Shown in pieces: positions 1-24,416 of a DNA stretch of 64,000 nucleotides. Under the pieces are notes generated by a model. It was not told the origin of the DNA. It saw only the letters and a list, made by a program, of their open reading frames with translations, and made no database searches. Position 1 is the first letter of the stretch, and every line of letters begins with the position of its first letter. Position numbers and translations under genes: made by a program. The DNA comes from Escherichia coli (GTDB lineage: Bacteria; Pseudomonadota; Gammaproteobacteria; Enterobacterales; Enterobacteriaceae): the NCBI RefSeq assembly GCF_046105845.1, contig NZ_CP151004.1. One strand, given 5' to 3'.

Positions 1-1
1 G

Positions 2-952
2 GCAAAACGCGGGATCCCGGTATTTAACGCACCGTTCTCAAATACGCGCTCTGTTGCGGAGCTGGTGATTGGCGAACTGCTGCTGCTATTGCGCGGCGTG
101 CCGGAAGCCAATGCTAAAGCGCACCGTGGCGTGTGGAACAAACTGGCGGCGGGTTCTTTTGAAGCGCGCGGCAAAAAGCTGGGTATCATCGGCTACGGTC
201 ATATTGGTACGCAATTGGGCATTCTGGCTGAATCGCTGGGAATGTATGTTTACTTTTATGATATTGAAAACAAACTGCCGCTGGGCAACGCCACTCAGGT
301 ACAGCATCTTTCTGACCTGCTGAATATGAGCGATGTGGTGAGTCTGCATGTACCAGAGAATCCGTCCACCAAAAATATGATGGGTGCGAAAGAGATTTCA
401 CTAATGAAGCCCGGCTCGCTGCTGATTAATGCTTCGCGCGGTACTGTGGTGGATATTCCGGCGCTGTGTGACGCGCTGGCGAGCAAACATCTGGCGGGGG
501 CGGCAATCGACGTATTCCCGACGGAACCGGCAACCAATAGCGATCCATTTACCTCTCCGCTGTGTGAATTCGACAACGTCCTTCTGACGCCACACATTGG
601 CGGTTCGACTCAGGAAGCGCAGGAGAATATCGGCCTGGAAGTTGCGGGTAAATTGATCAAGTATTCTGACAATGGCTCAACGCTCTCTGCGGTGAACTTC
701 CCGGAAGTCTCGCTGCCACTGCACGGTGGGCGTCGTCTGATGCACATCCACGAAAACCGTCCGGGCGTGCTAACTGCGCTGAACAAAATCTTCGCCGAGC
801 AGGGCGTCAACATCGCCGCGCAATATCTGCAAACTTCCGCCCAGATGGGTTATGTGGTTATTGATATTGAAGCCGACGAAGACGTTGCCGAAAAAGCGCT
901 GCAGGCAATGAAAGCTATTCCGGGTACCATTCGCGCCCGCCTGCTGTACTAA
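2..952 (+). CDS. serA: D-3-phosphoglycerate dehydrogenase, C-terminal part (5' end lies outside window)
   Basis: Frame is open from window position 2; translation AKRGIPVFNAPFSNTRSVAELVIGELLLL...IRARLLY matches SerA as I recall it; stop at 950-952. Confidence 0.93.
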   Translation, partial: AKRGIPVFNAPFSNTRSVAELVIGELLLLLRGVPEANAKAHRGVWNKLAAGSFEARGKKLGIIGYGHIGTQLGILAESLGMYVYFYDIENKLPLGNATQVQHLSDLLNMSDVVSLHVPENPSTKNMMGAKEISLMKPGSLLINASRGTVVDIPALCDALASKHLAGAAIDVFPTEPATNSDPFTSPLCEFDNVLLTPHIGGSTQEAQENIGLEVAGKLIKYSDNGSTLSAVNFPEVSLPLHGGRRLMHIHENRPGVLTALNKIFAEQGVNIAAQYLQTSAQMGYVVIDIEADEDVAEKALQAMKAIPGTIRARLLY

Positions 953-971
953 TTCCCCTTCTCTGAAAATC

Positions 972-1003
972 AACGGGCAGGTCACTGACTTGCCCGTTTT
1001 TTT
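972..1003 (+). terminator. Rho-independent terminator of serA
   Basis: Hairpin acgggca(g)gtcactgac ttgcccgt followed by a T7 run immediately after the serA stop. Confidence 0.7.
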
Positions 1004-1124
1004 ATCGCTTCTCCCGCGCATGTCGCTGCCATTTGTAGTGCGCTGCAATTGCCTTTGCGAGTCTGCTCGAAGAAATAAATCAAAGTCAGATCAATGCGTT
1101 GTGTTTATTTAATGGGGATTTACG

Positions 1125-1270
1125 ATGGCAGGGCAGCATGGGGCTGTAACGGTAAAGCCCTCACCGAAGCGAGGGCTTGAAGGAGAAGGGTTATGATGCG
1201 ACTTGTCATCATACTGATTGTACTGTTACTCATAAGTTTCCCAGCTTATTAACAGTCAGTCTCAGGGGAG
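1125..1270 (-). ncRNA. sibC: SibC antisense sRNA (antitoxin of ibsC); ends approximate
   Basis: Inferred from known gene organisation: Sib sRNAs are about 140 nt and fully antisense to the ibs ORF. The ends were not determined from the sequence. Confidence 0.4.
1193..1252 (+). CDS. ibsC: Ibs-family type I toxin, 19-aa hydrophobic peptide (MMRLVIILIVLLLISFPAY)
   Basis: Short ORF missed by the 60-aa ORF track; SD aaggag 6-8 nt upstream; sits in the serA-ygfA intergenic region where ibsC/sibC is known to lie; peptide matches the Ibs family pattern. Confidence 0.6.
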   Translation: MMRLVIILIVLLLISFPAY

Positions 1271-1352
1271 GAGTCATCCTCCCTTACCCTTACTCACTAA
1301 ATTAGGTTAAAGAATCAACGATGTCAATCAGGGCGATGCAGGTGTGTCGCCC

Positions 1353-1901
1353 TCACCACTCCCAGACTTTCGACGGTGTAACCACCGCAGGAAGTGGGAT
1401 ATCCCACTCTTCAACGGGGAGTTTTTCCACCAACTGACAATCATGCGCATAACCCACCGGTTGCATTTTATAGTGCTGCCAGTTTTGTAAGGTTCGATCA
1501 TAAAAACCACCGCCCATTCCCAGGCGCTGACCGTACTCATCAAAGGCGACCAGCGGTGTGATCAACACGTCTAATCGGGAAAGGGGTAGCACGTCACGCA
1601 CATCCAGTTTTGGCTCATGGATCTTCAACCTGTTCATCACCAGTTCGCTTTGCGGATGGTAATTCAGGAACAGCAAATTACCGGCACTAAAGGGATGCAA
1701 AACTGGAAGATATACGCGCTTACCGGCGCGCCAGAGTTGTTCTATGAGTGGCTGGGTGTCGAGTTCGCCATCAAAAGAGAGGAATACAGCGACCGTATGC
1801 GCCATCACCACTGGGGGATAAGTCATCATCCGGGTAGCAGCTTGTTGACCCATTTCCTGCTGTTGTTCCGGCGTTAACGCACGACGACGTTGCCGAATCA
1901 T
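1353..1901 (-). CDS. ygfA: 5-formyltetrahydrofolate cyclo-ligase family protein
   Basis: ORF translation ...MIRQRRRALTPEQQQEMGQQAATRMM... matches YgfA; start chosen at MIRQ to give 182 aa; an upstream in-frame ATG at 1955 is an alternative. Confidence 0.85.
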   Translation of the reverse strand: MIRQRRRALTPEQQQEMGQQAATRMMTYPPVVMAHTVAVFLSFDGELDTQPLIEQLWRAGKRVYLPVLHPFSAGNLLFLNYHPQSELVMNRLKIHEPKLDVRDVLPLSRLDVLITPLVAFDEYGQRLGMGGGFYDRTLQNWQHYKMQPVGYAHDCQLVEKLPVEEWDIPLPAVVTPSKVWEW

Positions 1902-1973
1902 TTTGCGGATTTCTTGTCGGGATAATGTCAGTGGGAGTTCTGGTAGTTGCGTCATGGCTGGTGCCAGATAAGA

Positions 1974-2159
1974 AGGGAATCTCCGAGATGCCGCCGCAGG
2001 CTGTAACCCTTGAACCCTTGGTTCAAGGTGAATGTGTCGTCGCAGTTTTAAGGCTTCTCGGACGGACCGAGCATGCTCACCAACCGCGGAGCGCCACATT
2101 CTTGTGGTATGAAATATCGGCTCAGGGGACTGGCCCGCTTGCGAACATCTCAGAGAAAT
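1974..2159 (-). ncRNA. ssrS: 6S RNA (RNA polymerase sigma-70 holoenzyme regulator)
   Basis: Reverse complement reads ATTTCTCTGAGATGTTCGCAAGCGGGCCAGTCCCCTGAGCCGATATTTCATACCACAAGAATGTGGCGCTCCGCGGTTGGTGAGCATGCTCGGTCCGTCCGAGAAGCCTTAAAACTGCG...GGCGGCATCTCGGAGATTCCCT, which is the 6S RNA sequence; lies directly upstream of ygfA on the same strand. Exact mature ends are within a few nt. Confidence 0.92.
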
Positions 2160-2200
2160 TTTGTCTTCACGGTTACTCTACCACAGTAAACCGAAAAGTG

Positions 2201-2596
<396 letters not shown>

Positions 2597-2697
2597 CTAT
2601 AGCTACCCTGATGAGAAGAGACAAGCCCTTTTCTGGTCCACCAGGGCCCAAAGTGGTAGCATATCATGAATATTCCTCCCTTTGACGACGAATGCTT

Positions 2698-3276
2698 ATG
2701 TCTATACAGAACGAAATGCCTGGTTACAACGAAATGAACCAGTATCTGAACCAACAAGGGACGGGTCTGACCCCAGCTGAGATGCATGGTTTAATCAGCG
2801 GGATGATATGTGGCGGTAACGATGACAGCTCATGGCTGCCGCTACTTCACGACCTGACGAACGAAGGCATGGCTTTCGGTCATGAGCTGGCACAGGCACT
2901 GCGTAAAATGCACTCTGCCACCAGCGATGCCCTCCAGGATGACGGCTTCCTTTTTCAGCTTTATCTGCCTGATGGCGATGATGTCAGCGTTTTCGATCGG
3001 GCTGATGCGCTGGCAGGTTGGGTCAATCACTTCCTGCTTGGTCTTGGCGTTACGCAACCGAAGCTGGACAAAGTGACCGGCGAAACCGGTGAAGCCATCG
3101 ACGATCTGCGTAACATCGCGCAGTTGGGCTACGACGAAGACGAAGATCAGGAAGAGCTTGAAATGTCGCTTGAAGAGATCATCGAATACGTTCGTGTTGC
3201 CGCGCTGTTATGCCACGACACCTTTACTCATCCGCAACCGACCGCGCCAGAAGTACAAAAACCGACTCTACACTAA
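2698..3276 (+). CDS. ygfB: UPF0149 family protein YgfB
   Basis: [35 protein letters not shown]...; start set at the second Met to give 192 aa. Confidence 0.85.
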
Positions 3277-3301
3277 AAACAAAAAACGTAAGGAGAGTGT
3301 T

Positions 3302-4627
3302 ATGAGTGAGATATCCCGGCAAGAGTTTCAGCGTCGCCGTCAGGCCCTGGTGGAGCAAATGCAACCCGGCAGCGCCGCGCTGATTTTTGCTGCACCAGAA
3401 GTAACACGTAGCGCCGACAGCGAATACCCCTATCGTCAGAACAGTGACTTCTGGTACTTCACCGGCTTTAACGAACCGGAAGCGGTGCTGGTGCTGATTA
3501 AAAGCGATGACACTCATAACCACAGCGTTTTGTTTAACCGCGTTCGCGACCTGACGGCAGAGATCTGGTTTGGTCGTCGCTTAGGCCAGGATGCCGCGCC
3601 AGAGAAACTGGGCGTTGACCGCGCACTGGCATTCAGCGAAATCAATCAGCAACTTTATCAACTGCTTAATGGTCTGGATGTGGTTTATCACGCTCAGGGC
3701 GAATATACCTATGCTGATGAAATCGTGAACAGCGCGCTGGAAAAGCTGCGTAAAGGCTCGCGACAGAATCTCACTGCCCCGGCTACGATGATCGACTGGC
3801 GTCCCATTGTTCATGAAATGCGCCTGTTCAAATCGCCGGAAGAGATTGCCGTACTTCGCCGCGCGGGAGAAATCACCGCCCTGGCGCATACCCGGGCGAT
3901 GGAAAAATGCCGTCCGGGAATGTTCGAGTACCATCTGGAAGGCGAAATTCACCACGAATTTAACCGCCACGGTGCGCGTTATCCGTCCTACAACACCATC
4001 GTCGGCAGCGGTGAAAACGGCTGCATTCTGCATTACACCGAAAACGAGTGTGAACTGCGTGACGGTGACCTGGTGTTGATTGATGCGGGTTGCGAATACA
4101 AAGGTTACGCTGGCGATATTACCCGCACCTTCCCGGTCAACGGCAAATTCACTCAGGCCCAGCGTGAAATCTACGACATTGTGCTGGAGTCTCTTGAAAC
4201 CAGCCTGCGCCTGTATCGTCCGGGAACTTCCATGCAGGAAGTCACTGGTGAAGTGGTGCGCATCATGGTTAGCGGCCTGGTAAAACTCGGCATCCTGAAA
4301 GGTGATGTTGATGAACTGATCGCTCAGAACGCCCATCGTCCTTTCTTTATGCATGGCCTTAGCCACTGGTTAGGACTGGATGTCCATGACGTTGGCGTTT
4401 ATGGTCAGGATCGCTCGCGCATTCTGGAACCTGGCATGGTACTGACCGTAGAGCCAGGTCTGTATATCGCGCCGGATGCAGATGTGCCAGAACAATATCG
4501 CGGTATCGGCATTCGTATTGAAGACGACATTGTGATTACCGAAACCGGCAACGAAAACCTCACCGCCAGCGTGGTGAAAAAGCCGGAAGAAATCGAAGCG
4601 TTGATGGCAGCTGCGAGAAAGCAATGA
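3302..4627 (+). CDS. pepP: Xaa-Pro aminopeptidase (aminopeptidase P II)
   Basis: Internal ATG at 3302 gives MSEISRQEFQRRRQALVEQMQPGS..., 441 aa; the ORF-track start at 3089 is an upstream extension; stop overlaps the ubiH start (ATGA). Confidence 0.93.
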   Translation: MSEISRQEFQRRRQALVEQMQPGSAALIFAAPEVTRSADSEYPYRQNSDFWYFTGFNEPEAVLVLIKSDDTHNHSVLFNRVRDLTAEIWFGRRLGQDAAPEKLGVDRALAFSEINQQLYQLLNGLDVVYHAQGEYTYADEIVNSALEKLRKGSRQNLTAPATMIDWRPIVHEMRLFKSPEEIAVLRRAGEITALAHTRAMEKCRPGMFEYHLEGEIHHEFNRHGARYPSYNTIVGSGENGCILHYTENECELRDGDLVLIDAGCEYKGYAGDITRTFPVNGKFTQAQREIYDIVLESLETSLRLYRPGTSMQEVTGEVVRIMVSGLVKLGILKGDVDELIAQNAHRPFFMHGLSHWLGLDVHDVGVYGQDRSRILEPGMVLTVEPGLYIAPDADVPEQYRGIGIRIEDDIVITETGNENLTASVVKKPEEIEALMAAARKQ

Positions 4628-5802
4628 GCGTAATCATCGTCGGTGGCGGCATGGCGGGCGCGACGCTGGCGCTGGCTATTTCCCGGTTAAGTCACGGGGC
4701 GCTGCCGGTACATTTGATTGAAGCGACAGCGCCAGAGTCACATGCTCATCCGGGCTTTGATGGACGAGCTATTGCGCTGGCGGCGGGCACTTGTCAGCAA
4801 CTGGCGCGCATCGGCGTCTGGCAATCTTTGGCTGATTGCGCAACCGCCATCACCAGCGTGCATGTCAGCGATCGTGGTCATGCCGGATTCGTCACTCTCA
4901 CCGCAGAAGATTACCAACTGGCGGCGCTGGGGCAGGTTGTCGAATTGCATAATGTCGGGCAACGGCTGTTTGCATTGCTGCGCAAAGCACCTGGCGTAAC
5001 GCTGCATTGCCCTGATCGCGTGGCTAACGTTGCCCGTACTCAGAGTCACGTTGAAGTGACGCTGGAGAGTGGCGAGACGCTGACGGGCTGCGTGCTGGTA
5101 GCCGCTGATGGCACCCATTCAGCGTTAGCCACTGTGTGCGGCGTTGACTGGCAGCAGGAGCCTTACGAACAACTGGCAGTGATTGCCAACGTTGCGACTT
5201 CCGTTGCGCATGAAGGGCGCGCTTTTGAACGCTTTACGCAACATGGCCCGCTGGCGATGTTGCCGATGTCTGACGGACGCTGTTCGCTGGTCTGGTGTCA
5301 TCCACTGGAACGGCGCGAAGAGGTGCTGTCGTGGAGCGACGAGAAGTTTTGCCGTGAACTCCAGTCGGCCTTTGGTTGGCGACTTGGGAAAATTACCCAC
5401 GCTGGTAAACGCAGTGCTTACCCGCTGGCGTTAACCCGCGCCGCCAGACCTGTTACCCATCGTACCGTGCTGGTGGGCAATGCGGCGCAAACTCTGCACC
5501 CGATTGCCGGGCAAGGATTTAATCTCGGTATGCGGGATGTCATGAGCCTTGCGGAAACCCTGACTCAGGCGCAGGAGCGCGGAGAAGACATAGGTGATTA
5601 CGGCGTATTGTGCCGTTATCAGCAGCGTCGACAGAGCGATCGCGAAGCAACCATCGGTGTCACGGACAGCCTTGTACATCTTTTTGCCAACCATTGGACG
5701 CCGCTGGTTGTCGGGCGCAACATCGGGCTGATGACGATGGAATTATTTACCCCGGCACGCGATGTGCTGGCGCAGCGCACCCTCGGTTGGGTGGCGCGTT
5801 GA
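4624..5802 (+). CDS. ubiH: 2-octaprenyl-6-methoxyphenol hydroxylase (FAD monooxygenase)
   Basis: 392-aa ORF MSVIIVGGGMAGATLALAIS... with N-terminal GxGxxG FAD-binding motif; matches UbiH. Confidence 0.93.
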   Translation: MSVIIVGGGMAGATLALAISRLSHGALPVHLIEATAPESHAHPGFDGRAIALAAGTCQQLARIGVWQSLADCATAITSVHVSDRGHAGFVTLTAEDYQLAALGQVVELHNVGQRLFALLRKAPGVTLHCPDRVANVARTQSHVEVTLESGETLTGCVLVAADGTHSALATVCGVDWQQEPYEQLAVIANVATSVAHEGRAFERFTQHGPLAMLPMSDGRCSLVWCHPLERREEVLSWSDEKFCRELQSAFGWRLGKITHAGKRSAYPLALTRAARPVTHRTVLVGNAAQTLHPIAGQGFNLGMRDVMSLAETLTQAQERGEDIGDYGVLCRYQQRRQSDREATIGVTDSLVHLFANHWTPLVVGRNIGLMTMELFTPARDVLAQRTLGWVAR

Positions 5803-5824
5803 AGGCGGTTTTAAGGAATAAACA

Positions 5825-7027
5825 ATGCAAAGTGTTGATGTAGCCATTGTTGGCGGCGGCATGGTGGGGCTGGCGGTTGCCTGTGGCTTACAGGGGAGCG
5901 GCTTACGCGTTGCCGTACTGGAGCAGCGCGTACCGGAACCTCTGGCGGCGAATGCACCACCACAACTGCGCGTTTCGGCTATCAATGCCGCCAGCGAAAA
6001 ATTACTCACCCGTCTTGGCGTCTGGCAGGACATTCTCTCTCGTAGGGCCAGCTGTTATCACGGTATGGAAGTGTGGGACAAAGACAGCTTTGGTCACATT
6101 TCGTTTGACGATCAAAGCATGGGCTATAGCCATCTTGGGCATATCGTTGAAAATTCAGTGATTCACTACGCGCTGTGGAACAAAGCGCATCAGTCGTCAG
6201 ATATCACTCTGTTAGCCCCCGCAGAATTACAGCAGGTCGCCTGGGGAGAAAATGAAACCTTCCTGACGCTGAAAGACGGCAGTATGTTAACGGCGCGTCT
6301 GGTGATTGGCGCGGACGGCGCTAATTCCTGGTTGCGCAACAAAGCCGATATTCCGCTGACCTTCTGGGATTATCAGCATCACGCGCTGGTAGCGACCATT
6401 CGCACTGAAGAACCGCATGATGCGGTGGCGCGGCAGGTTTTCCATGGCGAAGGCATTCTGGCCTTTTTACCGCTTAGCGATCCGCATCTTTGCTCGATTG
6501 TCTGGTCACTGTCGCCAGAGGAAGCGCAGCGGATGCAGCAGGCAGGTGAAGACGAATTTAATCGCGCGTTAAATATCGCTTTTGATAATCGCCTGGGCTT
6601 ATGCAAGGTTGAGAGCGAGCGTCAGGTGTTCCCGCTGACGGGGCGTTATGCCCGCCAGTTTGCCGCACACCGTCTGGCGTTGGTGGGCGACGCCGCGCAT
6701 ACTATTCACCCGCTCGCGGGGCAGGGCGTTAATCTCGGCTTTATGGATGCCGCAGAGCTGATTGCCGAACTGAAACGGTTGCATCGTCAGGGTAAAGACA
6801 TCGGGCAGTACATTTACCTGCGTCGCTATGAGCGTAGCCGTAAGCACAGTGCGGCGCTGATGCTGGCTGGTATGCAGGGATTTCGCGATCTGTTTTCCGG
6901 TACCAATCCGGCGAAAAAACTGCTGCGTGATATTGGTCTGAAACTGGCCGACACGCTTCCTGGCGTTAAACCACAACTTATCCGCCAGGCAATGGGATTA
7001 AACGATTTGCCTGAATGGCTGCGTTAA
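5825..7027 (+). CDS. ubiI: 2-octaprenylphenol hydroxylase (FAD monooxygenase)
   Basis: 400-aa ORF MQSVDVAIVGGGMVGLAVACGLQ...; UbiI/VisC, paralogue of UbiH. Confidence 0.92.
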   Translation: MQSVDVAIVGGGMVGLAVACGLQGSGLRVAVLEQRVPEPLAANAPPQLRVSAINAASEKLLTRLGVWQDILSRRASCYHGMEVWDKDSFGHISFDDQSMGYSHLGHIVENSVIHYALWNKAHQSSDITLLAPAELQQVAWGENETFLTLKDGSMLTARLVIGADGANSWLRNKADIPLTFWDYQHHALVATIRTEEPHDAVARQVFHGEGILAFLPLSDPHLCSIVWSLSPEEAQRMQQAGEDEFNRALNIAFDNRLGLCKVESERQVFPLTGRYARQFAAHRLALVGDAAHTIHPLAGQGVNLGFMDAAELIAELKRLHRQGKDIGQYIYLRRYERSRKHSAALMLAGMQGFRDLFSGTNPAKKLLRDIGLKLADTLPGVKPQLIRQAMGLNDLPEWLR

Positions 7028-7070
7028 AAATTTCTCATCTGTTGTTTATTTGATACCCATCACACTTTCA

Positions 7071-7100
7071 TCTCCCGGTTTTTTCGCCGGGAGATTTTCC
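7071..7100 (+). terminator. Rho-independent terminator after ubiI
   Basis: Hairpin tctcccgg ... ccgggaga with flanking T-rich tract about 45 nt after the ubiI stop. Confidence 0.55.
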
Positions 7101-7474
7101 TCATTTGAAATAAACTAATTTCACCTCCGTTTTCGCATTATATTTTCTAATGTCATGATTTTTTGATTTAGTGTTTTTTGACAATTTTTTAGTTCTTAAT
7201 ATTGCATTAATCAAATTAACTTTCTCATCTGTTTATCTTTATATAGAGATTTGTTCATTTTTTGGTTTTTTATTCTGTTGTGATTTTGGCGTTTTTTAAC
7301 CATAAGCTAATGTGATGATCAATTTTACCTTATGGTTAACAGTCTGTTTCGGTGGTAAGTTCAGGCAAAAGAGAACGATTGCGTTGGGGACCGGGAGTGG
7401 CTCCGATGCTGGGTTTCGTGGTGATAATTTCGCCATGGAAAAGTTGTCAGCCCCGCTTATTCAATGAGGACAAG

Positions 7475-8569
7475 ATGGCACAACAGACTCCTTTGTACGA
7501 ACAACATACGCTTTGCGGCGCTCGCATGGTGGATTTCCACGGCTGGATGATGCCGCTGCATTACGGTTCGCAAATCGACGAACATCATGCGGTACGTACC
7601 GATGCCGGAATGTTTGATGTGTCACATATGACCATCGTCGATCTTCGCGGCAGCCGCACTCGGGAGTTTCTGCGTTATCTGCTGGCGAACGATGTGGCGA
7701 AACTCACCAAAAGCGGCAAAGCCCTTTACTCGGGGATGTTGAATGCCTCTGGCGGTGTGATAGATGACCTCATCGTCTACTACTTTACTGAAGATTTCTT
7801 CCGCCTCGTTGTTAACTCCGCCACCCGCGAAAAAGACCTCTCCTGGATTACCCAACACGCTGAACCTTTCGGCATCGAAATTACCGTTCGTGATGACCTT
7901 TCCATGATCGCCGTACAAGGGCCGAATGCGCAGGCAAAAGCTGCCACACTGTTTAATGACGCCCAGCGTCAGGCGGTGGAAGGGATGAAACCGTTCTTTG
8001 GCGTGCAGGCGGGCGATCTGTTTATTGCCACCACTGGTTATACCGGTGAAGCGGGCTATGAAATTGCGCTGCCCAATGAAAAAGCGGCCGATTTCTGGCG
8101 TGCGCTGGTGGAAGCGGGCGTTAAGCCATGCGGCCTGGGCGCGCGTGACACGCTGCGTCTGGAAGCGGGTATGAATCTTTATAGTCAGGAGATGGACGAA
8201 ACCATCTCTCCTTTAGCCGCCAATATGGGCTGGACTATCGCCTGGGAACCGGCAGATCGTGACTTCATCGGTCGTGAAGCCCTGGAAGTGCAGCGTGAGC
8301 ATGGCACAGAAAAACTGGTTGGTCTGGTGATGACCGAAAAAGGCGTGCTGCGTAATGAACTGCCGGTACGTTTTACCGATGCGCAGGGCAACCAGCATGA
8401 AGGCATTATCACCAGCGGGACTTTCTCCCCGACGCTGGGTTACAGCATTGCGCTGGCGCGCGTGCCGGAAGGTATTGGTGAAACAGCGATTGTGCAAATT
8501 CGCAACCGTGAAATGCCGGTTAAAGTGACGAAACCTGTTTTTGTGCGTAACGGTAAAGCCGTCGCGTGA
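7475..8569 (+). CDS. gcvT: Glycine cleavage system T protein (aminomethyltransferase)
   Basis: Internal ATG at 7475 gives [41 protein letters not shown]..., 364 aa; the track ORF at 7352 is 5'-extended. Confidence 0.94.
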
Positions 8570-8592
8570 TTTACTTTTTTGGAGATTGATTG

Positions 8593-8982
8593 ATGAGCAA
8601 CGTACCAGCAGAACTCAAATACAGCAAAGAACACGAATGGCTGCGTAAAGAAGCCGACGGCACTTACACCGTTGGTATCACCGAACATGCCCAGGAGCTG
8701 TTAGGCGATATGGTGTTTGTTGACCTGCCGGAAGTGGGCGCAACGGTTAGCGCGGGCGATGACTGCGCGGTTGCCGAATCAGTAAAAGCGGCGTCAGACA
8801 TTTATGCGCCAGTAAGCGGTGAAATCGTGGCGGTAAACGACGCACTGAGCGATTCCCCGGAACTGGTGAACAGCGAACCGTATGCAGGCGGCTGGATCTT
8901 TAAAATCAAAGCCAGCGATGAAAGCGAACTGGAATCACTGCTGGATGCGACCGCATACGAAGCATTGTTAGAAGACGAGTAA
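8593..8982 (+). CDS. gcvH: Glycine cleavage system H protein (lipoyl carrier)
   Basis: [49 protein letters not shown]..., 129 aa. Confidence 0.94.
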
Positions 8983-8992
8983 CGGCTTTATT

Positions 8993-9064
8993 CCTCTTCT
9001 GCGGGAGAGGATCAGGGTGAGGAACTTTTACGCCTCACCCTCACTCTCTTCGCAAGGAGAGAGG
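8993..9064. repeat. Imperfect palindromic intergenic element (arms cctcttctgcgggagaggatcagggtgagg / cctcaccctcactctcttcgcaaggagagagg)
   Basis: Seen directly: two inverted arms sharing gggagagg and agggtgagg cores, between gcvH and the true gcvP start; shares motifs with the element at 12054-12155. Confidence 0.6.
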
Positions 9065-9100
9065 TTCACAATTCACTGCACGTTTCAGGAACCATCGCTC

Positions 9101-11974
9101 ATGACACAGACGTTAAGCCAGCTTGAAAACAGCGGCGCTTTTATTGAACGCCATATCGGACCGGACGCCGCGCAACAGCAAGAAATGCTGAATGCCGTTG
9201 GCGCACAATCGTTAAACGCGCTGACCGGCCAGATTGTGCCGAAAGATATTCAGCTTGCGACCCCGCCGCAGGTTGGCGCACCGGCGACCGAATACGCCGC
9301 GCTGGCGGAACTCAAGGCTATTGCCAGTCGCAATAAACGCTTCACGTCTTACATCGGCATGGGTTACACCGCCGTGCAGCTACCGCCGGTTATTCTGCGT
9401 AACATGCTGGAAAATCCGGGCTGGTATACCGCGTATACTCCGTATCAACCTGAAGTCTCCCAGGGCCGCCTTGAAGCACTGCTCAACTTCCAGCAGGTAA
9501 CGTTGGATTTAACCGGGCTGGATATGGCCTCTGCTTCTCTTCTGGACGAAGCCACCGCTGCCGCCGAAGCAATGGCGATGGCTAAACGCGTCAGCAAACT
9601 GAAAAATGCCAACCGCTTCTTCGTGGCTTCCGATGTGCATCCGCAAACGCTGGATGTGGTCCGTACTCGTGCCGAAACCTTTGGTTTTGAAGTGATTGTC
9701 GATGACGCGCAAAAAGTGCTCGACCATCAGGACGTCTTCGGCGTGCTGTTTCAGCAGGTCGGCACTACCGGTGAAATTCATGACTACACTGCGCTTATCA
9801 GCGAACTGAAATCACGCAAAATTGTGGTCAGCGTCGCCGCCGATATTATGGCGCTGGTGCTGTTAACTGCGCCGGGTAAACAGGGCGCGGATATTGTCTT
9901 TGGTTCGGCGCAACGCTTTGGCGTACCGATGGGCTACGGTGGCCCACATGCGGCATTCTTTGCGGCGAAAGATGAATACAAACGCTCAATGCCGGGCCGT
10001 ATTATCGGTGTATCGAAAGATGCAGCTGGCAATACCGCTCTGCGCATGGCGATGCAGACTCGCGAGCAACATATTCGCCGTGAGAAAGCGAACTCCAACA
10101 TTTGTACTTCCCAGGTACTGCTGGCAAACATCGCCAGCCTGTATGCCGTTTATCACGGCCCGGTTGGCCTGAAACGTATCGCTAACCGCATCCACCGTCT
10201 GACCGATATCCTGGCGGCGGGCCTGCAACAAAAAGGTCTGAAGCTGCGTCATGCGCACTATTTCGACACCTTGTGTGTGGAAGTGGCCGACAAAGCGGGC
10301 GTACTGACGCGTGCCGAAGCGGCTGAAATCAACCTGCGTAGCGATATCCTGAACGCGGTTGGGATCACCCTTGATGAAACCACCACGCGTGAAAACGTGA
10401 TGCAGCTTTTCAGCGTGCTGCTGGGCGATAACCACGGGCTGGAGATCGACACGCTGGATAAAGACGTGGCTCACGACAGCCGCTCTATTCAGCCTGCGAT
10501 GCTGCGCGACGACGAAATCCTCACCCATCCGGTGTTTAATCGCTACCACAGCGAAACCGAAATGATGCGCTATATGCACTCGCTGGAGCGTAAAGATCTG
10601 GCGCTGAATCAGGCGATGATCCCGCTGGGTTCCTGCACCATGAAACTGAACGCCGCCGCCGAGATGATCCCAATCACCTGGCCGGAATTTGCTGAACTGC
10701 ACCCGTTCTGCCCGCCAGAACAGGCCGAAGGTTATCAGCAGATGATTGCGCAGCTGGCTGACTGGCTGGTGAAACTGACCGGTTACGACGCCGTTTGTAT
10801 GCAGCCGAACTCTGGCGCACAGGGCGAATACGCGGGCCTGCTGGCGATTCGTCATTATCATGAAAGCCGCAACGAAGGGCATCGTGATATCTGCCTGATC
10901 CCGGCATCTGCCCACGGCACTAACCCCGCTTCCGCGCATATGGCGGGGATGCAGGTGGTGGTTGTGGCGTGTGATAAAAACGGCAATATCGATTTGACTG
11001 ATCTGCGCGCGAAAGCGGAACAGGCGGGCGATAACCTCTCCTGTATCATGGTGACCTATCCTTCCACCCACGGCGTGTATGAAGAAACGATCCGTGAGGT
11101 GTGTGAAGTCGTGCATCAGTTCGGTGGTCAGGTTTACCTTGATGGCGCGAACATGAACGCTCAGGTTGGCATCACCTCGCCGGGCTTTATTGGTGCGGAC
11201 GTCTCGCACCTTAACCTGCATAAAACTTTCTGCATTCCGCACGGTGGTGGTGGTCCGGGTATGGGACCGATCGGCGTGAAAGCGCATCTGGCACCGTTTG
11301 TACCGGGTCATAGCGTGGTGCAAATCGAAGGCATGTTAACCCGTCAGGGCGCGGTTTCTGCGGCACCGTTCGGTAGCGCATCTATTCTGCCAATCAGCTG
11401 GATGTACATCCGCATGATGGGCGCAGAAGGGCTGAAAAAAGCAAGCCAGGTGGCAATTCTTAACGCCAACTATATTGCCAGCCGCCTGCAGGATGCTTTC
11501 CCGGTGCTGTATACCGGTCGCGACGGTCGCGTGGCGCACGAATGTATTCTTGATATTCGTCCGCTGAAAGAAGAAACCGGCATCAGCGAACTGGATATTG
11601 CCAAGCGTCTGATCGACTACGGTTTCCACGCGCCGACCATGTCATTCCCGGTGGCGGGTACGCTGATGGTTGAACCGACCGAATCCGAAAGCAAAGTGGA
11701 ACTGGATCGCTTTATCGACGCGATGCTGGCTATCCGCGCAGAAATTGACCAGGTGAAAGCCGGTGTCTGGCCGCTGGAAGATAACCCGCTGGTGAACGCG
11801 CCACACATTCAGAGCGAACTGGTCGCCGAGTGGGCGCATCCGTACAGCCGCGAAGTTGCAGTATTCCCGGCAGGCGTGGCAGACAAATACTGGCCAACAG
11901 TGAAACGTCTGGATGATGTTTACGGCGACCGTAACCTGTTCTGCTCCTGCGTACCGATTAGCGAATACCAGTAA
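9101..11974 (+). CDS. gcvP: Glycine dehydrogenase (decarboxylating), glycine cleavage P protein
   Basis: Internal ATG at 9101 gives [35 protein letters not shown]..., 957 aa; the track ORF start at 9017 runs through the upstream palindrome. Confidence 0.94.
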
Positions 11975-11996
11975 TTTACTGATTCGACTATCTTCT

Positions 11997-12020
11997 AAAG
12001 GCGCTTCGGCGCCTTTTTAG
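11997..12020 (+). terminator. Rho-independent terminator of gcvTHP operon
   Basis: aaaggcgcttcggcgcctttttag: perfect GC-rich hairpin followed by T5. Confidence 0.8.
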
Positions 12021-12053
12021 TCAGATGACAAAGTACAAAAGTGCTCAGACAGT

Positions 12054-12155
12054 CCCCTCGCCCCTTTGGGGAGAGGGTTAGGGTGAGGGGAACAGGCCGG
12101 CACTGGCGCGAATATTTACCCTCACCCCGGCCCTCTCCCTGAAAGGGCGAGGGGG
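12054..12155. repeat. About 100-bp GC-rich imperfect palindrome (dispersed intergenic repeat-like)
   Basis: Arms cccctcgcccctttggggagagggttagggtgagggg and ccctcaccccggccctctccctgaaagggcgaggggg are near reverse complements of each other. Confidence 0.6.
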
Positions 12156-12240
12156 AAAAGCGTGCCAACATTGAAGATTGAGCCAGTTTGTTAGCAATCT
12201 AAAAGATACGTCAACGAATTAATTTTTCCAGGAAAAACAA

Positions 12241-12984
12241 TTGGCTATAGCACTTGTGACCGGTGGCAGTCGCGGCATCGGGCGGGCAACTGCATTACTG
12301 TTGGCGCAAGAAGGGTATACGGTGGCGGTTAATTATCAGCAAAACCTCCACGCGGCGCAGGAAGTGGTGAACTTAATCACGCAAGCCGGTGGCAAGGCAT
12401 TCGTGCTCCAGGCGGATATCAGCGACGAAAATCAGGTCGTCGAGATGTTTACCGCAATCGATCTGCACGATGAACCGCTAGCTGCACTGGTCAATAACGC
12501 CGGGATCTTGTTTACCCAGTGCACCGTAGAAAACCTTACCGCAGAGCGAATCAACCGGGTACTTTCCACCAATGTGACGGGACATTTTCTCTGTTGCCGC
12601 GAGGCGGTAAAACGCATGGCGCTGAAAAATGGCGGTAATGGCGGTGCTATCGTCAACGTCTCTTCAGTGGCCTCACGGCTGGGATCTCCGGGGGAATACG
12701 TTGATTATGCGGCATCGAAAGGGGCGATTGATACGTTAACCACAGGGCTGTCGCTGGAAGTCGCTGCGCAAGGAATTCGCGTTAATGGCGTGCGGCCCGG
12801 TTTTATCTATACCGGAATGCACGCCAGCGGTGGCGAACCTGGACGCGTTGATCGCGTTAAGTCGAACATCCCCATGCAGCGCGGTGGGCAGGCGGAAGAG
12901 GTCGCGCAGGCCATCGTCTGGCTGTTAAGTGATAAAGCCTCTTATGTCACGGGAAGTTTTATCGATTTGGCGGGCGGAAAATAA
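12241..12984 (+). CDS. ygfF: Short-chain dehydrogenase/reductase (SDR) family oxidoreductase
   Basis: TTG start; (M)AIALVTGGSRGIGRATALLL... with the TGxxxGxG Rossmann motif; 247 aa. Confidence 0.85.
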   Translation: MAIALVTGGSRGIGRATALLLAQEGYTVAVNYQQNLHAAQEVVNLITQAGGKAFVLQADISDENQVVEMFTAIDLHDEPLAALVNNAGILFTQCTVENLTAERINRVLSTNVTGHFLCCREAVKRMALKNGGNGGAIVNVSSVASRLGSPGEYVDYAASKGAIDTLTTGLSLEVAAQGIRVNGVRPGFIYTGMHASGGEPGRVDRVKSNIPMQRGGQAEEVAQAIVWLLSDKASYVTGSFIDLAGGK

Positions 12985-13002
12985 GATGGGAAAGTTATCT
13001 GA

Positions 13003-13033
13003 CCGGATGCAACACAATTGGCGTTGCATCCGG
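13003..13033. terminator. Palindromic hairpin between convergent ygfF and bglA (probable bidirectional terminator / REP-like)
   Basis: ccggatgcaacacaattggcgttgcatccgg, perfect 11-bp arms. Confidence 0.5.
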
Positions 13034-13045
13034 CACATCAGATAA

Positions 13046-14506
<1,461 letters not shown>

Positions 14507-14523
14507 TTACAGGAAATAGTACC

Positions 14524-14835
14524 ATGCAGCCAAACGACATCACTTTTTTTCAACGTTTCCAGGATGACATTCTGGCTGGGCGTAAAACCATCACCATCCG
14601 CGACGAGTCTGAATCGCACTTCAAAACGGGTGATGTGCTTCGTGTCGGGCGTTTTGAAGATGACGGTTATTTTTGCACGATTGAAGTCACCGCAACCTCA
14701 ACCGTAACGCTGGATACACTGACGGAAAAACATGCAGAGCAGGAAAATATGACCCTGCCTGAACTGAAAAAGGTCATTGCCGACATCTATCCCGGCCAGA
14801 CACAGTTTTATGTGATTGAATTTAAATGCCTTTAA
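14524..14835 (+). CDS. yqfB: ASCH-domain protein (N4-acetylcytidine amidohydrolase)
   Basis: 103-aa [44 protein letters not shown]... Confidence 0.88.
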
Positions 14836-14995
14836 ATTGAACTTACGCCTGTTAGTTGAAATTTTGCATTTAATTTCATGATTTTTAGGAGATTAGTCCC
14901 AAATCAGAATTTATTTTAGCTAACAGGTGTTCACTGGAACTATTCTCAGTTACGCTGGAGAGGTATACATGTGCGTGTACGTTTCTCCGGAGTAA

Positions 14996-15658
<663 letters not shown>

Positions 15659-15693
15659 TGGGTGTGCCTTTGTAGGCCTGAAAAGACACACCC

Positions 15694-15728
15694 TTGTCGC
15701 ATCAGGCGATAAATGCATGATGCGACAC
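15694..15728. repeat. REP (repetitive extragenic palindrome) unit
   Basis: ttgtcgcatcaggcgataaatgcatgatgcgacac contains the REP core GCCTGATGCGAC on the minus strand in palindromic arrangement; lies between convergent yqfA and ygfZ. Confidence 0.6.
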
Positions 15729-15734
15729 AGAGAT

Positions 15735-16715
15735 TTACTCTTCGAGTGAATACGGCAGCGGCTCGATACGCAATGTATTCGCATCGTCACGCACGCGGAA
15801 GATGCTGTCCGGTTCCATATCGTTATTCATGACAACCTGTACCACGACCTGACCATCTTCCAGTTTTACCGCAGCCAGCACGGTTCCGGTACGACGCCAG
15901 TTCTCGCCCATTTTCAGCTCTAAGTCTTCACCGGCTTCCGGCAGTCGGCTGGCGCTACCCGTCAGCAACCAGAGCGCGCGTTTGTTGGCACCACGGAATT
16001 TAGCTCGCGCCACCATCTCTTGTCCGGTATAGCAGCCTTTTTTAAAGCTAATGCCGCCCAGCGCCTGGAGGTTGGTCGCCTGTGGGATAAACTGCCCGCT
16101 GTTGGCGGCATCAATCACCGGGAAACCCGCTTCAATGTTTAATGCCAGCCACTGTTGGCTATTGTTCAGTTCCGCTTCACCGCGCAGTTTATCGGTCAGC
16201 ATATTGGCAGTGGCTTCATCGGTTACGATCAGGAAACGTTCTGCCGGGTGTTCAAACCATAGCAAAGCGGTCGCGCCTTCTTTAACTACCTGTTTTTCTT
16301 TCGAAGGCAGTTCACTAAAGAGATTTGCCAGCGCGGCGCGCGCCTGAAAACCGGCAACACCAAGCAGCACACGCTCGTCGTCTGGCGCGATGGTCACTTT
16401 AGAGAACACCGCATATTTTTTCAGTTCAGTCAGCTGCGGTTCACGCACGCTGCGCCGTTCAATCCATGCAAAGCCATCGCCGTCGCGGAACAGACGTAAA
16501 TTGCTCCACATTTTACCTTTGGCGTCGCAATGGGCGGCGAGCAGGTGCTGATCTTCAGTCATCTGGCTGACATCTGCTGTCACCTGGCCTTGCATATATT
16601 TTTCGCTGTCCGCGCCAGTAATAGTGGCAAGCGCCCAGTCATCAAGCGTCATCAGCGTCAGCGGTAAACGGGCAGAAGCCGTAGGCTGACGGGGAGGAAA
16701 AGGTGTAAAAGCCAT
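15735..16715 (-). CDS. ygfZ: Folate-binding tRNA-modifying protein
   Basis: 326-aa [47 protein letters not shown]... Confidence 0.9.
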
Positions 16716-16945
16716 AATAGAGTCCTGAGTTGCTTAACGGCGTATTAATAACTAATGGTAAAAGAGCTATGAGGCAATGCAAGTGCTTTCACTACGCGAT
16801 CTGTGCCTTCTGCGAGGCGACTTCCAAAAAAATGAAGCCCTTGAATTGTTGTGAATTAATTTCGCGATCGTGATGGTGTTTACTGATATTCCCGTAAAAG
16901 AAGTCGAAAAACACGTTACAATAGCGGGGTACTGGATTTTCGTGA

Positions 16946-17612
<667 letters not shown>

Positions 17613-17651
17613 AGATGACGGCAAAGCATATGCGCTAAGCCGTCAGTGACA

Positions 17652-18173
17652 TCAGGCGTAATGCTCTGCCATTTCGTTGAGGATTTGCTCGCACCAGTTC
17701 TGAATACGCTCGTCGCTAAGGTCATACTGATTGGTTTCGTCCAGCGCCAGGCCCACGAACAGTTGCCCGTCAGCTATCACCGGTTTCGGGCTGGTAAACT
17801 CATATCCTTCCGTTGGCCAGTAGCCGACGAACTTCACGCCTTTGGTCGAGAGCTTGTCATGCAGCATACCGAGCGCATCGAGGAACCACTCGCCGTATCC
17901 CAGTTGATCGCCAAGCCCATACAGCGCAACAATTTTACCTTCGAGGTTCAGGTCGTCGAGCTGATCCCAGATGGCTTCCCAGTCTTCCTGGATTTCACCA
18001 AAATCCCAGGTCGGGATACCCAGAATGAGCACATCGTACTGCTCCATTAATTTCGGGGAGTCGTCCTTGAGGTTATGTAAGGTCACCAGTTCTGGGCCGA
18101 TAATATCGCGGATTTTTTCTGCCGCCATTTCGGTGTAACAGGTGCTGGAACCGTAAAAAAGACCCATATTCAT
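17652..18173 (-). CDS. fldB: Flavodoxin 2
   Basis: 173-aa [29 protein letters not shown]...; long-chain flavodoxin signature. Confidence 0.92.
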
Positions 18174-18284
18174 AACGTAAGCTTCTCGATTCTGCTGTGG
18201 CTTTTGTGGCTAGTGTATCAGAATCGCTTTAGTCACGGCACAATAAGGCATAATGGATCAAATGAGTGACCATAAGGGGCGCAA

Positions 18285-19181
18285 GTGAAACAGGATCTGG
18301 CACGCATCGAGCAGTTTCTTGATGCTCTGTGGCTGGAAAAAAATCTGGCTGAAAATACGTTGAACGCTTACCGTCGCGATCTGTCAATGATGGTGGAGTG
18401 GTTGCATCACCGCGGGTTGACGCTGGCGACGGCGCAAAGTGACGATTTGCAGGCATTACTGGCAGAAAGGCTGGAGGGCGGGTATAAAGCCACCAGCTCA
18501 GCGCGTTTGCTGAGTGCAGTGCGCCGATTGTTCCAGTATCTTTATCGCGAAAAGTTTCGTGAAGACGATCCCAGTGCGCATCTCGCTTCACCGAAATTGC
18601 CACAGCGTTTGCCAAAAGATTTAAGCGAAGCGCAGGTCGAACGTTTATTACAGGCACCATTAATTGATCAGCCACTGGAGCTACGCGATAAAGCCATGCT
18701 TGAAGTGTTGTATGCTACAGGGCTGCGTGTCTCTGAACTGGTCGGGCTGACAATGAGTGATATCAGTCTGCGTCAGGGCGTAGTGCGGGTCATTGGTAAA
18801 GGCAACAAAGAGCGCCTGGTGCCGTTAGGTGAAGAGGCGGTTTACTGGCTGGAAACGTATCTCGAGCATGGGCGACCTTGGTTGTTGAACGGTGTCTCTA
18901 TTGATGTGTTGTTCCCCAGCCAGCGTGCGCAGCAGATGACGCGACAGACCTTCTGGCACCGCATTAAACATTATGCCGTGCTGGCGGGTATCGACAGCGA
19001 AAAGCTGTCACCGCATGTGTTGCGTCACGCTTTTGCCACTCATTTATTAAATCATGGTGCGGATTTACGCGTGGTGCAGATGCTACTGGGCCACAGCGAT
19101 CTCTCCACCACGCAAATTTATACGCATGTCGCTACCGAGCGTCTGCGGCAACTTCATCAACAGCATCACCCGCGGGCGTGA
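18285..19181 (+). CDS. xerD: Site-specific tyrosine recombinase XerD
   Basis: GTG start; 298 aa; C-terminal R..HxxR..Y catalytic region (LRHAFATHLL...TQIYTHV). Confidence 0.93.
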   Translation: MKQDLARIEQFLDALWLEKNLAENTLNAYRRDLSMMVEWLHHRGLTLATAQSDDLQALLAERLEGGYKATSSARLLSAVRRLFQYLYREKFREDDPSAHLASPKLPQRLPKDLSEAQVERLLQAPLIDQPLELRDKAMLEVLYATGLRVSELVGLTMSDISLRQGVVRVIGKGNKERLVPLGEEAVYWLETYLEHGRPWLLNGVSIDVLFPSQRAQQMTRQTFWHRIKHYAVLAGIDSEKLSPHVLRHAFATHLLNHGADLRVVQMLLGHSDLSTTQIYTHVATERLRQLHQQHHPRA

Positions 19182-19205
19182 TGTCTGAAAAGAACGGGAA
19201 GATTT

Positions 19206-19916: not shown

Positions 19917-19921
19917 TTCGC

Positions 19922-21655: not shown

Positions 21656-21745
21656 CGTCATCTTCTCTATAAAAAAGAGCGTGGATTGGGTACAATCCCG
21701 CTCTTATCACCGCATTTTGACTAGCTCAAGAAAAGAAATCAGACC

Positions 21746-22844: not shown

Positions 22845-22853
22845 GGAACCAAC

Positions 22854-24371: not shown

Positions 24372-24389
24372 GCATTACGTTATGCTCAC

Positions 24390-24416
24390 AACCCCGGCAA
24401 ATGTCGGGGTTTTTTA
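24390..24416 (+). terminator. Rho-independent terminator of prfB-lysS (overlaps the idi stop codon; probably bidirectional)
   Basis: aaccccggcaaatgtcggggtttttt: 7-bp GC-rich stem followed by T6. Confidence 0.8.

What the first reader, a model, noticed from the sequence alone, without database searches (positions are those of the whole stretch)
1100..1300. Type I toxin-antitoxin locus ibsC/sibC hidden in the serA-ygfA intergenic region
A 19-codon ORF (MMRLVIILIVLLLISFPAY) with a good SD lies in this convergent intergenic region and is invisible to the ORF track. It fits the Ibs toxin family, which is controlled by fully antisense Sib sRNAs. A stem-loop (ggaggagtcatcctcc) follows the ORF.
Basis: partly seen in the sequence, partly recalled or inferred. 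Interest (0 to 1): 0.45.

Follow-up and report, generated by a model that had tools for sequence, protein, structure and literature searches.

The report
Known ibsC/sibC toxin-antitoxin locus

Summary
A 19-codon ORF (1193..1252, +; MMRLVIILIVLLLISFPAY) follows an AGGAG Shine-Dalgarno (1181..1185) and precedes a 7-bp hairpin (1266..1283). It lies in the convergent serA–fau (ygfA) spacer.

- Rfam's SIB_RNA model hits the opposite strand at 136.5 bits against a gathering score of 56.
- The region is collinear with K-12 sibC (b4446) and ibsC (b4665).
- RefSeq annotates the identical DNA as "toxin IbsC" (WP_071525914.1).
- The locus is present in 5,424 of 5,426 complete E. coli genomes.

Mapped from K-12 and from Han et al. 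2010, SibC is 1291..1151 (−) and the ibsC mRNA is about 1133..1291 (+).

Within the transcribed region, the window differs from K-12 at codon 17 (AGC→CCA, S17P) and at two loop bases of the hairpin. Codon 17 is the complement of SibC nt 49–51. That triplet lies in recognition domain TRD1, and Han et al. mutated it to retarget SibC to ibsD. The CCA form is not unusual: 2,759 of 5,426 genomes carry it, against 2,163 for the K-12 form.

Verdict: already known, low interest.

The parts
1099..1126 (+). Putative ibsC promoter: -35 TTGTGT (1099..1104), 16-nt spacer, -10 TACGAT (1121..1126)
   Evidence: Inferred from the sequence and from its position 6 nt upstream of the mapped 5' end. The region is identical to K-12. 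The generic sigma-70 scan did not flag it. Han et al. report conserved promoter elements upstream of the ibsC start site, but the figure is not readable here.
1133..1291 (+). ibsC mRNA (about 159 nt). The 5' end is transferred from K-12 primer-extension data. The 3' end is approximate.
   Evidence: Han et al. 2010 describe a 159-nt ibsC mRNA with an 18-nt 5' overhang beyond the SibC 3' end. The mapping checks out: mRNA G50, G51 and G53 are window 1182, 1183 and 1185, opposite SibC C110, C109 and C107. The fold has MFE -63.1 kcal/mol and z = -5.03, with the SD in a single-stranded junction.
1181..1185 (+). Shine-Dalgarno AGGAG, 7 nt before the ATG
   Evidence: Read directly from the sequence. 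It lies inside the TRD2 target described by Han et al..
1193..1252 (+). ibsC ORF, 19 codons plus stop: MMRLVIILIVLLLISFPAY
   Evidence: Translation. It differs from K-12 IbsC at 1 of 19 residues, S17P. The identical ORF is annotated as ibsC, WP_071525914.1, in RefSeq.
1241..1243 (.). Codon 17 (CCA here, AGC in K-12). It is the complement of SibC nt 51..49 (UGG here, GCU in K-12), in the TRD1 loop.
   Evidence: Alignment. Han et al. changed G49CU51 to UGC to retarget SibC to ibsD. Allele counts are 2,759 genomes for CCA and 2,163 for AGC.
1266..1283 (.). 7-bp hairpin GGGAGGA/TCCTCCC with loop GTCA. It is the P2 hairpin of SibC (nt 9..26) and has a mirror hairpin in the ibsC 3' region.
   Evidence: Paired in the Rfam consensus structure, in the SibC MFE fold and in the mRNA fold. 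The differences from K-12 are confined to the loop (1274, 1275). Paralogs show compensatory changes in this stem.
1151..1291 (-). SibC antitoxin sRNA, 141 nt. It covers the whole ibsC ORF and its SD.
   Evidence: Coordinates are transferred base for base from K-12 sibC b4446. The Rfam SIB_RNA hit spans 1327..1177 at 136.5 bits. The fold has MFE -55.3 kcal/mol and z = -4.93. The consensus fold of 7 Sib RNAs has 43 pairs, 9 of them with compensatory changes.
1224..1246 (-). TRD1 (SibC +46..+68), in the P5 stem and loop. Its target lies inside the ibsC ORF.
   Evidence: Domain limits are from Han et al. 2010, mapped by the numbering checked. The target differs from every K-12 paralog at 2 to 7 positions.
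1177..1193 (-). TRD2 (SubC numbering: SibC +99..+115), comprising the 3' half of P1 and the single-stranded junction J1/7 (CUCCUUC). Its target is the ibsC SD and start region.
   Evidence: Domain limits are from Han et al. 2010. The sequence is identical to K-12 ibsC, and paralogs differ at 9 to 11 aligned positions. SibC nt 107..113 are unpaired in the MFE fold.
1155..1178 (-). SibC terminator hairpin P7 (SibC +114..+137), followed by UUUACC
   Evidence: MFE fold. Compensatory changes occur in this stem across paralogs. The K-12 annotated 3' end maps to 1151. The generic terminator scan did not flag it because the T-run is short.
1299..1327 (-). sibC promoter: -35 TTGACA (1327..1322), 17-nt spacer, -10 TAATTT (1304..1299). 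The transcription start is at 1291.
   Evidence: Read from the sequence. The Rfam SIB_RNA model includes this conserved stretch. TGTCAA is invariant in all six copies aligned. There is one spacer difference from K-12, at 1308. The generic scan did not flag it, because the -10 matches only 3 of 6 consensus bases.

Best explanation
Window 1099..1327 is the chromosomal ibsC/sibC type I toxin-antitoxin locus of Escherichia coli, in its canonical position between serA and fau (ygfA).

The plus strand gives a roughly 159-nt mRNA (about 1133..1291). It encodes the 19-residue hydrophobic peptide IbsC (1193..1252). The minus strand gives the 141-nt SibC RNA (1291..1151) from its own TTGACA-17-TAATTT promoter. 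SibC is complementary to the whole ORF and its ribosome-binding site.

The mechanism is taken from work on the K-12 locus. SibC is made constitutively. It first contacts the mRNA through either of two independent recognition domains. TRD1 is the P5 loop and pairs inside the ORF. TRD2 is the single-stranded junction J1/7 and pairs with the SD and start region. Pairing then spreads into the flanking sequence, translation is blocked and the mRNA is degraded. RNase III cleaves the SibC-ibsC duplex in vitro. If IbsC is made in excess, it inserts in the inner membrane, depolarises it and stops growth.

Shown here: the sequence identity, the RNA family membership, the synteny, the structure and the intactness of all elements. 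Inferred from literature: transcription, repression and toxicity in this particular strain.

This copy carries the Pro17 (CCA) allele. It changes the TRD1 loop triplet from GCU to UGG on the sRNA and the target triplet on the mRNA together, so cognate pairing is preserved. CCA is the commoner of the two major E. coli forms at this codon.
For: - Rfam RF00113 SIB_RNA hits 1327..1177 (-) at 136.5 bits against a gathering score of 56, E = 1.3e-29, with the full-length model matched.
- The window is collinear with K-12 sibC b4446 and ibsC b4665 between fau and serA. The transcribed unit differs only at codon 17 and two loop bases.
- Identical DNA in PCN033 and at least 19 other genomes is annotated ibsC, WP_071525914.1, flanked by serA and fau.
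- The locus is present in 5,424 of 5,426 complete E. coli genomes.
- The peptide aligns with IbsA-E. Residues M1, M2, I6, I7, L11, L12, S15, F16 and Y19 are invariant.
- The SibC fold reproduces the published P1, P2, P5, P6, J1/7 and P7 architecture, z = -4.93.
- The consensus fold has 9 of 43 pairs with compensatory changes across 7 Sib RNAs.
- TRD1 and TRD2 are defined, and G49CU51 is shown to be a specificity determinant, in Han et al. 2010, PMC2943612.
- Toxicity, membrane depolarisation within minutes and repression by Sib are summarised in PMC2943612 and PMC8309996.
- ibs-sib duplexes are captured in vivo, and the ibsD toxin transcript is stabilised in an rnc mutant (PMC7373196).
- Allele counts at codon 17 are 2,759 for CCA and 2,163 for AGC out of 5,426 genomes.
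Against: Nothing found contradicts the identification. The limits are these.

- No expression data exist for this strain.
- The generic sigma-70 and terminator scans flag neither promoter nor the SibC terminator. The elements are recognised only by homology with the mapped K-12 ends.
- The 19-aa peptide could not be scored against Pfam or NCBIfam, because the tool minimum is 20 aa.
- The primary paper (Fozo et al. 2008) is not in the held library, so it is cited second-hand.
- Toxicity has been shown for K-12 IbsC (Ser17), not for the Pro17 form. Pro at this position is native in K-12 IbsB and IbsE.
Confidence: 0.96

Rival explanations
1. The locus is a decayed, non-functional copy in this strain. 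The S17P change, a three-base substitution in a C-terminal residue, would inactivate the toxin, leaving only a relic sRNA.
For: The C-terminal residues of IbsC (positions 6-19) are reported to matter for toxicity (review PMC8309996). Some chromosomal type I loci are known to degenerate (PMC2887945).
Against: The CCA (Pro17) form is the commonest form at this codon, in 2,759 of 5,426 genomes. Pro17 is native in K-12 IbsB and IbsE. Both promoters, the SD, the start and stop codons, both TRDs and the terminator are intact. Outside codon 17 and the P2 loop they are identical to K-12.
Confidence: 0.03
2. Only the sRNA matters, and the 19-codon ORF on the opposite strand is a by-product that is not translated.
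For: Short ORFs of this size arise by chance. Other mechanical ORFs overlap the same DNA, for example 1120..1233 (-) of 37 aa and 1177..1305 (+) of 42 aa.
Against: The ORF, its length, its AGGAG and its MM...SF.xY pattern are kept in all six paralogs and alleles aligned, although 38-56 of 145 aligned positions differ between paralogs. Literature reports that Ibs expression is lethal and is repressed by Sib.
Confidence: 0.01
3. This rival concerns the hairpin only. The stem-loop at 1266..1283 would act mainly as the transcription terminator or 3' stabiliser of the ibsC mRNA, rather than as a SibC structural element. The two roles are not exclusive.
For: The ibsC mRNA is about 160 nt. From a start at 1133 it would therefore end about 8 nt after the hairpin. 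The hairpin also forms in the predicted mRNA fold.
Against: No T-run follows it (TTACCCTTACTC), and the terminator scan does not flag it. The 3' ends of ibs mRNAs are stated to be poorly defined. The same bases are the P2 hairpin in the Rfam Sib consensus and in the SibC fold.
Confidence: 0.3

Closest known systems
E. coli K-12 sibC (b4446) / ibsC (b4665), formerly RygC / QUAD1c
   Same: Same flanking genes (fau/ygfA and serA), same orientation and same lengths. The ibsC promoter region, SD, TRD2 and terminator are identical. 154 of 159 transcript positions are identical.
   Different: Codon 17 is CCA (Pro) instead of AGC (Ser), so SibC nt 49-51 are UGG instead of GCU. The P2 loop is GTCA instead of GCAA on the plus strand. 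There is one base change in the sibC promoter spacer (1308). The serA-proximal spacer outside the locus is divergent, with two indels.
Paralogous E. coli Ibs/Sib pairs (ibsA/sibA, ibsB/sibB, ibsD/sibD, ibsE/sibE)
   Same: Same architecture: an 18-19-aa hydrophobic ORF fully covered by an antisense sRNA of about 140 nt. Same Rfam family. The peptides are 68-84% identical.
   Different: They sit at different chromosomal sites (yegL-mdtA and yqiK-hldE). 38-56 of 145 aligned positions differ, and the differences include both TRD1 and TRD2. According to Han et al., those domains give each Sib its cognate specificity.
Other chromosomal type I toxin-antitoxin systems with cis-antisense RNAs (ldr/rdl, hok/sok)
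   Same: A small hydrophobic membrane toxin is repressed by an antisense RNA, and the duplexes are processed by RNase III.
   Different: The sequences and peptide families are unrelated. In Ibs/Sib the sRNA spans the whole functional mRNA, including the translation initiation region and the ORF.

Membership tests
Sib RNA (Rfam RF00113, SIB_RNA / QUAD) | Covariance-model score at or above the curated gathering score | tested here: met
   136.5 bits against a gathering score of 56, E = 1.3e-29, model positions 1-147 of 147, minus strand 1327..1177.
Sib RNA (Rfam RF00113, SIB_RNA / QUAD) | Conserved secondary structure (closing stem P1, hairpins P2, P5 and P6, single-stranded J1/7, terminator P7) supported by covariation | tested here: met
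   The MFE fold reproduces this layout, at -55.3 kcal/mol and z = -4.93. RNAalifold on 7 Sib RNAs gives 43 pairs, 9 with changes on both sides.
Sib RNA (Rfam RF00113, SIB_RNA / QUAD) | Own promoter and terminator giving an RNA of about 140 nt antisense to an ibs ORF | tested here: inconclusive
   By homology the feature is met. TTGACA-17-TAATTT and the P7 hairpin sit exactly where the K-12 sibC ends map, at 1291 and 1151, giving 141 nt. The generic consensus scans flag neither element, and no transcript data are available.
Sib RNA (Rfam RF00113, SIB_RNA / QUAD) | Two target-recognition domains, TRD1 (+46..+68) and TRD2 (+99..+115), complementary to the cognate ibs mRNA and different from the paralogs | tested here: met
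   Both are present. The TRD2 target is identical to K-12 ibsC and differs from paralogs at 9-11 aligned positions. The TRD1 target differs from paralogs at 2-7 positions.
Sib RNA (Rfam RF00113, SIB_RNA / QUAD) | Antisense transcript actually expressed | not testable with these tools
   No expression data exist for this strain. Literature on K-12 reports constitutive Sib RNAs and ibs-sib dsRNA in vivo.
Ibs toxin family (type I toxin) | 18-19-residue, highly hydrophobic peptide matching the family pattern (MM[KR]..II...LL..SF..Y) | tested here: met
   19 aa, 95% identical to K-12 IbsC. The 9 invariant columns shared with IbsA-E are all kept.
Ibs toxin family (type I toxin) | Profile-HMM match (Pfam or NCBIfam Ibs model) | not testable with these tools
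As indirect evidence, RefSeq names the identical protein WP_071525914.1 'type I toxin-antitoxin system toxin IbsC'.
Ibs toxin family (type I toxin) | Orthologous position of ibsC, the serA-fau(ygfA) spacer | tested here: met
   serA ends at 952 and fau ends at 1353, with ssrS and zapA beyond. The order is the same as in K-12 and PCN033.
Ibs toxin family (type I toxin) | Overproduction is toxic (membrane depolarisation, growth arrest) and the cognate Sib relieves it | not testable with these tools
   This needs an experiment. It has been shown for K-12 IbsC, which has Ser17, but not for the Pro17 form.

The most novel reading that the evidence does not exclude
E. coli is dimorphic at the three bases of the SibC TRD1 loop. 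About 51% of complete genomes carry UGG (Pro17) and about 40% carry GCU (Ser17), and all three bases differ between the two forms. Further TRD1 variants occur in O157:H7. This could reflect selection for altered sRNA-mRNA recognition specificity, for example to avoid cross-talk with whichever paralog set a lineage carries, rather than neutral drift or selection on the peptide. If so, natural sibC alleles would be a ready-made test of how cis-antisense specificity evolves.

The evidence does not exclude this. However, TRD2 is identical in all ibsC alleles examined, and Han et al. showed that either TRD alone suffices for repression. Any functional consequence is therefore probably small.
Probability: 0.1. 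Interest if true: 0.3.

Novelty: already known. Interest (0 to 1): 0.07.

Why it matters
It matters little beyond annotation quality. Gene callers have often missed this family too (PMC2887945). The locus itself was described in 2008, its recognition mechanism was dissected in 2010, and it is annotated in RefSeq.

The only mildly useful by-product concerns natural variation. The two major natural ibsC/sibC alleles differ exactly at the TRD1 triplet that was used experimentally to switch SibC specificity. The K-12 form is the less common of the two.

Tried and rejected
1. Rare allele. The 411-nt query matched only 61 of 5,425 genomes at 99% or better. This turned out to reflect the divergent serA-proximal spacer. 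The 159-nt transcript matches 617 genomes at 99% or better, and the CCA codon itself is in 2,759 genomes. The idea was rejected.

2. Gene conversion from a paralog as the source of the three-base change at codon 17. No K-12 paralog, nor the PCN033 yqiK-hldE copy, carries CCA-GCT at codons 17-18. The paralogs have CCC-GCT, CCG-ACT, GCA-GCT and CAG-GCT. There is no support, so it was not pursued.

3. Generic promoter and terminator scan of 940..1370. It found only the serA terminator (972..998) and neither sib nor ibs signals. It is uninformative for these non-consensus elements.

4. Pfam scan of the peptide.

5. The primary paper, Fozo et al. 2008, is not held under its PubMed id or its PMC id. 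It was used second-hand through Han 2010 and two other papers.

6. The large protein-database and metagenome searches were deliberately not run. The identification was already unambiguous.

7. The ibsA/ibsB locus of PCN033 was not located, so the cross-talk comparison within one genome carrying this allele is incomplete.

Full report
**Observation**

- An ORF at 1193..1252 (+) translates to MMRLVIILIVLLLISFPAY*.
- AGGAG lies at 1181..1185, 7 nt upstream of the ATG.
- The quoted stem-loop string is at 1267..1282. The full hairpin is GGGAGGA-GTCA-TCCTCCC at 1266..1283.
- serA ends at 952 on the plus strand and fau (the current name of ygfA) ends at 1353 on the minus strand. The spacer is therefore convergent.
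- At 19 aa the ORF is below the 20-aa floor of the ORF lister and is absent from its output.

**Identification**

A covariance-model scan of 900..2400 against Rfam gave two strong hits.
- 6S RNA at 2159..1976 (-).
- SIB_RNA (RF00113, type "antitoxin") at 1327..1177 (-). It scored 136.5 bits against a gathering score of 56, with E = 1.3e-29 and all 147 model positions matched.

A whole-window scan found no other Sib copy.

Megablast of 950..1360 against 5,426 complete E. coli genomes matched 5,425 of them. In the top rows the annotated features under the match are ibsC, fau and serA. In strain PCN033, which is 100% identical over the query, the ORF is annotated "type I toxin-antitoxin system toxin IbsC", WP_071525914.1.

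K-12 MG1655 has sibC (b4446, 141 nt) and ibsC (b4665) in the same fau-serA spacer. A pairwise alignment shows the window is collinear with it.

**Anatomy in window coordinates**

There are no indels between the window and K-12 across the locus, so K-12 coordinates transfer base for base.
- SibC is 1291..1151 (-).
- Its promoter is TTGACA (1327..1322), a 17-nt spacer, then TAATTT (1304..1299).

Han et al. 2010 (PMC2943612) describe a 159-nt ibsC mRNA whose 5' end overhangs the SibC 3' end by 18 nt. That places the mRNA at about 1133..1291 (+). The numbering can be verified. Their mRNA residues G50, G51 and G53 fall on window 1182, 1183 and 1185, opposite SibC C110, C109 and C107, exactly as they report.

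Their two recognition domains map as follows.
- TRD1 (+46..+68) is window 1246..1224, inside the ORF.
- TRD2 (+99..+115) is window 1193..1177, over the SD and start codon.

The predicted SibC fold (-55.3 kcal/mol, z = -4.93, no shuffle as good) has these elements.

| Element | SibC positions | Note |
|---|---|---|
| P1 | 1-6 with 101-106 | closing stem |
| P5 | apical loop 48-55 | long arm |
| P6 | 79-100 | hairpin |
| J1/7 | 107-113 | single-stranded CUCCUUC |
| P7 | 114-137 | terminator, followed by UUUACC |

This matches the published architecture.

An RNAalifold consensus of this SibC, the five K-12 Sib RNAs and the PCN033 yqiK-hldE copy has 43 pairs. Nine of them have compensatory changes, in P2, the P5 arm and P7.

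The mRNA also folds well (z = -5.03). The SD lies in an unpaired junction and the TRD1 target lies in an apical loop. The K-12 allele gives the same architecture.

**The stem-loop**

The hairpin after the ORF is paired in the Rfam Sib consensus and is SibC's P2. It is not followed by a T-run, and the terminator scan does not flag it. The mRNA length of about 160 nt implies an end about 8 nt after it, so it may also help define or protect the ibsC 3' end. Han et al. state that ibs mRNA ends are poorly defined.

**How it works**

This section rests on the literature, not on tests here.
- Sib RNAs are constitutively expressed. Ibs peptides affect the envelope and are lethal when overproduced, and each Sib represses its cognate ibs.
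- Either TRD1 or TRD2 alone suffices. Initial contacts spread into the flanking sequence, and repression leads to mRNA degradation. RNase III cleaves the duplex in vitro.
- IbsC depolarises the membrane within minutes and induces the psp operon (PMC8309996).
- ibs-sib dsRNAs are captured in vivo. ibsD transcripts are stabilised in rnc mutants (PMC7373196).
- A 2025 preprint reports that Salmonella IbsA inhibits the Fo sector of ATP synthase.

**What differs from K-12**

Inside the transcribed unit there are five base differences.
- Three are at codon 17 (1241..1243). AGC becomes CCA, which is S17P.
- Two are in the P2 loop (1274, 1275).

One more difference lies in the sibC promoter spacer, at 1308.

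Codon 17 is the complement of SibC nt 49-51. K-12 G49-C50-U51 becomes U49-G50-G51 here. Han et al. changed G49CU51 to UGC to let SibC pair with ibsD. The allele therefore differs at a known specificity determinant. Both strands come from the same DNA, so cognate complementarity is preserved automatically.

I first suspected a rare allele, because only 61 genomes matched 950..1360 at 99% or better. That figure reflects the divergent spacer next to serA. Better-targeted counts show otherwise.
- The 159-nt transcript is at least 99% identical in 617 genomes.
- A 31-nt query in which every 28-mer seed must span codon 17 finds the CCA form in 2,759 of 5,426 genomes.
- The same design finds the K-12 AGC form in 2,163 genomes.

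Sampled alleles show CCA in IAI1, the O157:H7 strains, O18 873.10 and AH20J067. They show AGC in K-12, R6 and GIMC1409. Pro at position 17 is also native in K-12 IbsB and IbsE.

The TRD2 target is identical in all ibsC alleles sampled and differs from all paralogs at 9-11 aligned positions. The TRD1 target differs from each paralog at 2-7 positions. The copy therefore looks like a fully intact, ordinary ibsC/sibC.

**Verdict**

The locus is already known and annotated, so interest is low. The one reading with some residual novelty is that the population-wide dimorphism at the TRD1 triplet reflects selection on recognition specificity. This was not tested. It is probably of small consequence, because TRD2 is invariant and sufficient on its own.

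Noticed in passing
window 1976..2159 (-): 6S RNA (ssrS). Rfam RF00013 scores 139.8 bits against a gathering score of 46.4, immediately upstream of fau on the same strand, as in K-12. This is a known gene.
   Followed up: partly
window about 1007..1071: The serA-proximal part of the spacer lies between the serA terminator (972..998) and the ibsC promoter. It diverges sharply from K-12, with clustered substitutions and two indels of 5 and 7 nt, while the adjacent ibsC/sibC unit is nearly identical. This is why only 61 genomes match 950..1360 at 99% or better, against 617 for the transcript alone.
   Followed up: partly
window 1353..2099 (-): The mechanical ORF for fau runs 248 aa and overlaps ssrS. 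RefSeq start-site choices for fau also differ between genomes: 603 nt in PCN033 and 549 nt in K-12.
   Followed up: no
window 58788..58861 (+): A single tRNA-Gly (anticodon CCC), the only tRNA in the window.
   Followed up: no
L006 19592..19651 (PCN033, yqiK-hldE spacer): PCN033 is identical to the window at ibsC but has one ibs gene between yqiK and hldE (MMKLVIILVVLLLVSFQAY), where K-12 has two (ibsD and ibsE). This is copy-number variation of the family between strains.
   Followed up: partly
L007 and L009 (O157:H7), L010 (IAI1), at the serA-fau locus: There are further natural alleles of the same locus. O157:H7 has F16L plus a synonymous change, both inside the TRD1 target. IAI1 has V5A. 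RefSeq names these orthologs only 'Ibs family toxin' rather than ibsC. The PCN033 region I inspected annotates the ibsC CDS but no sibC ncRNA, whereas the K-12 record does annotate sibC.
   Followed up: partly
window 1..49992 against L014: The window is collinear with PCN033 over 50 kb at 98.4% identity (791 mismatches, 1 gap), although 950..1360 is 100% identical. The window therefore comes from a different E. coli strain, and the region is ordinary core chromosome, running from serA to the ygf, xdh and ssnA genes.
   Followed up: partly
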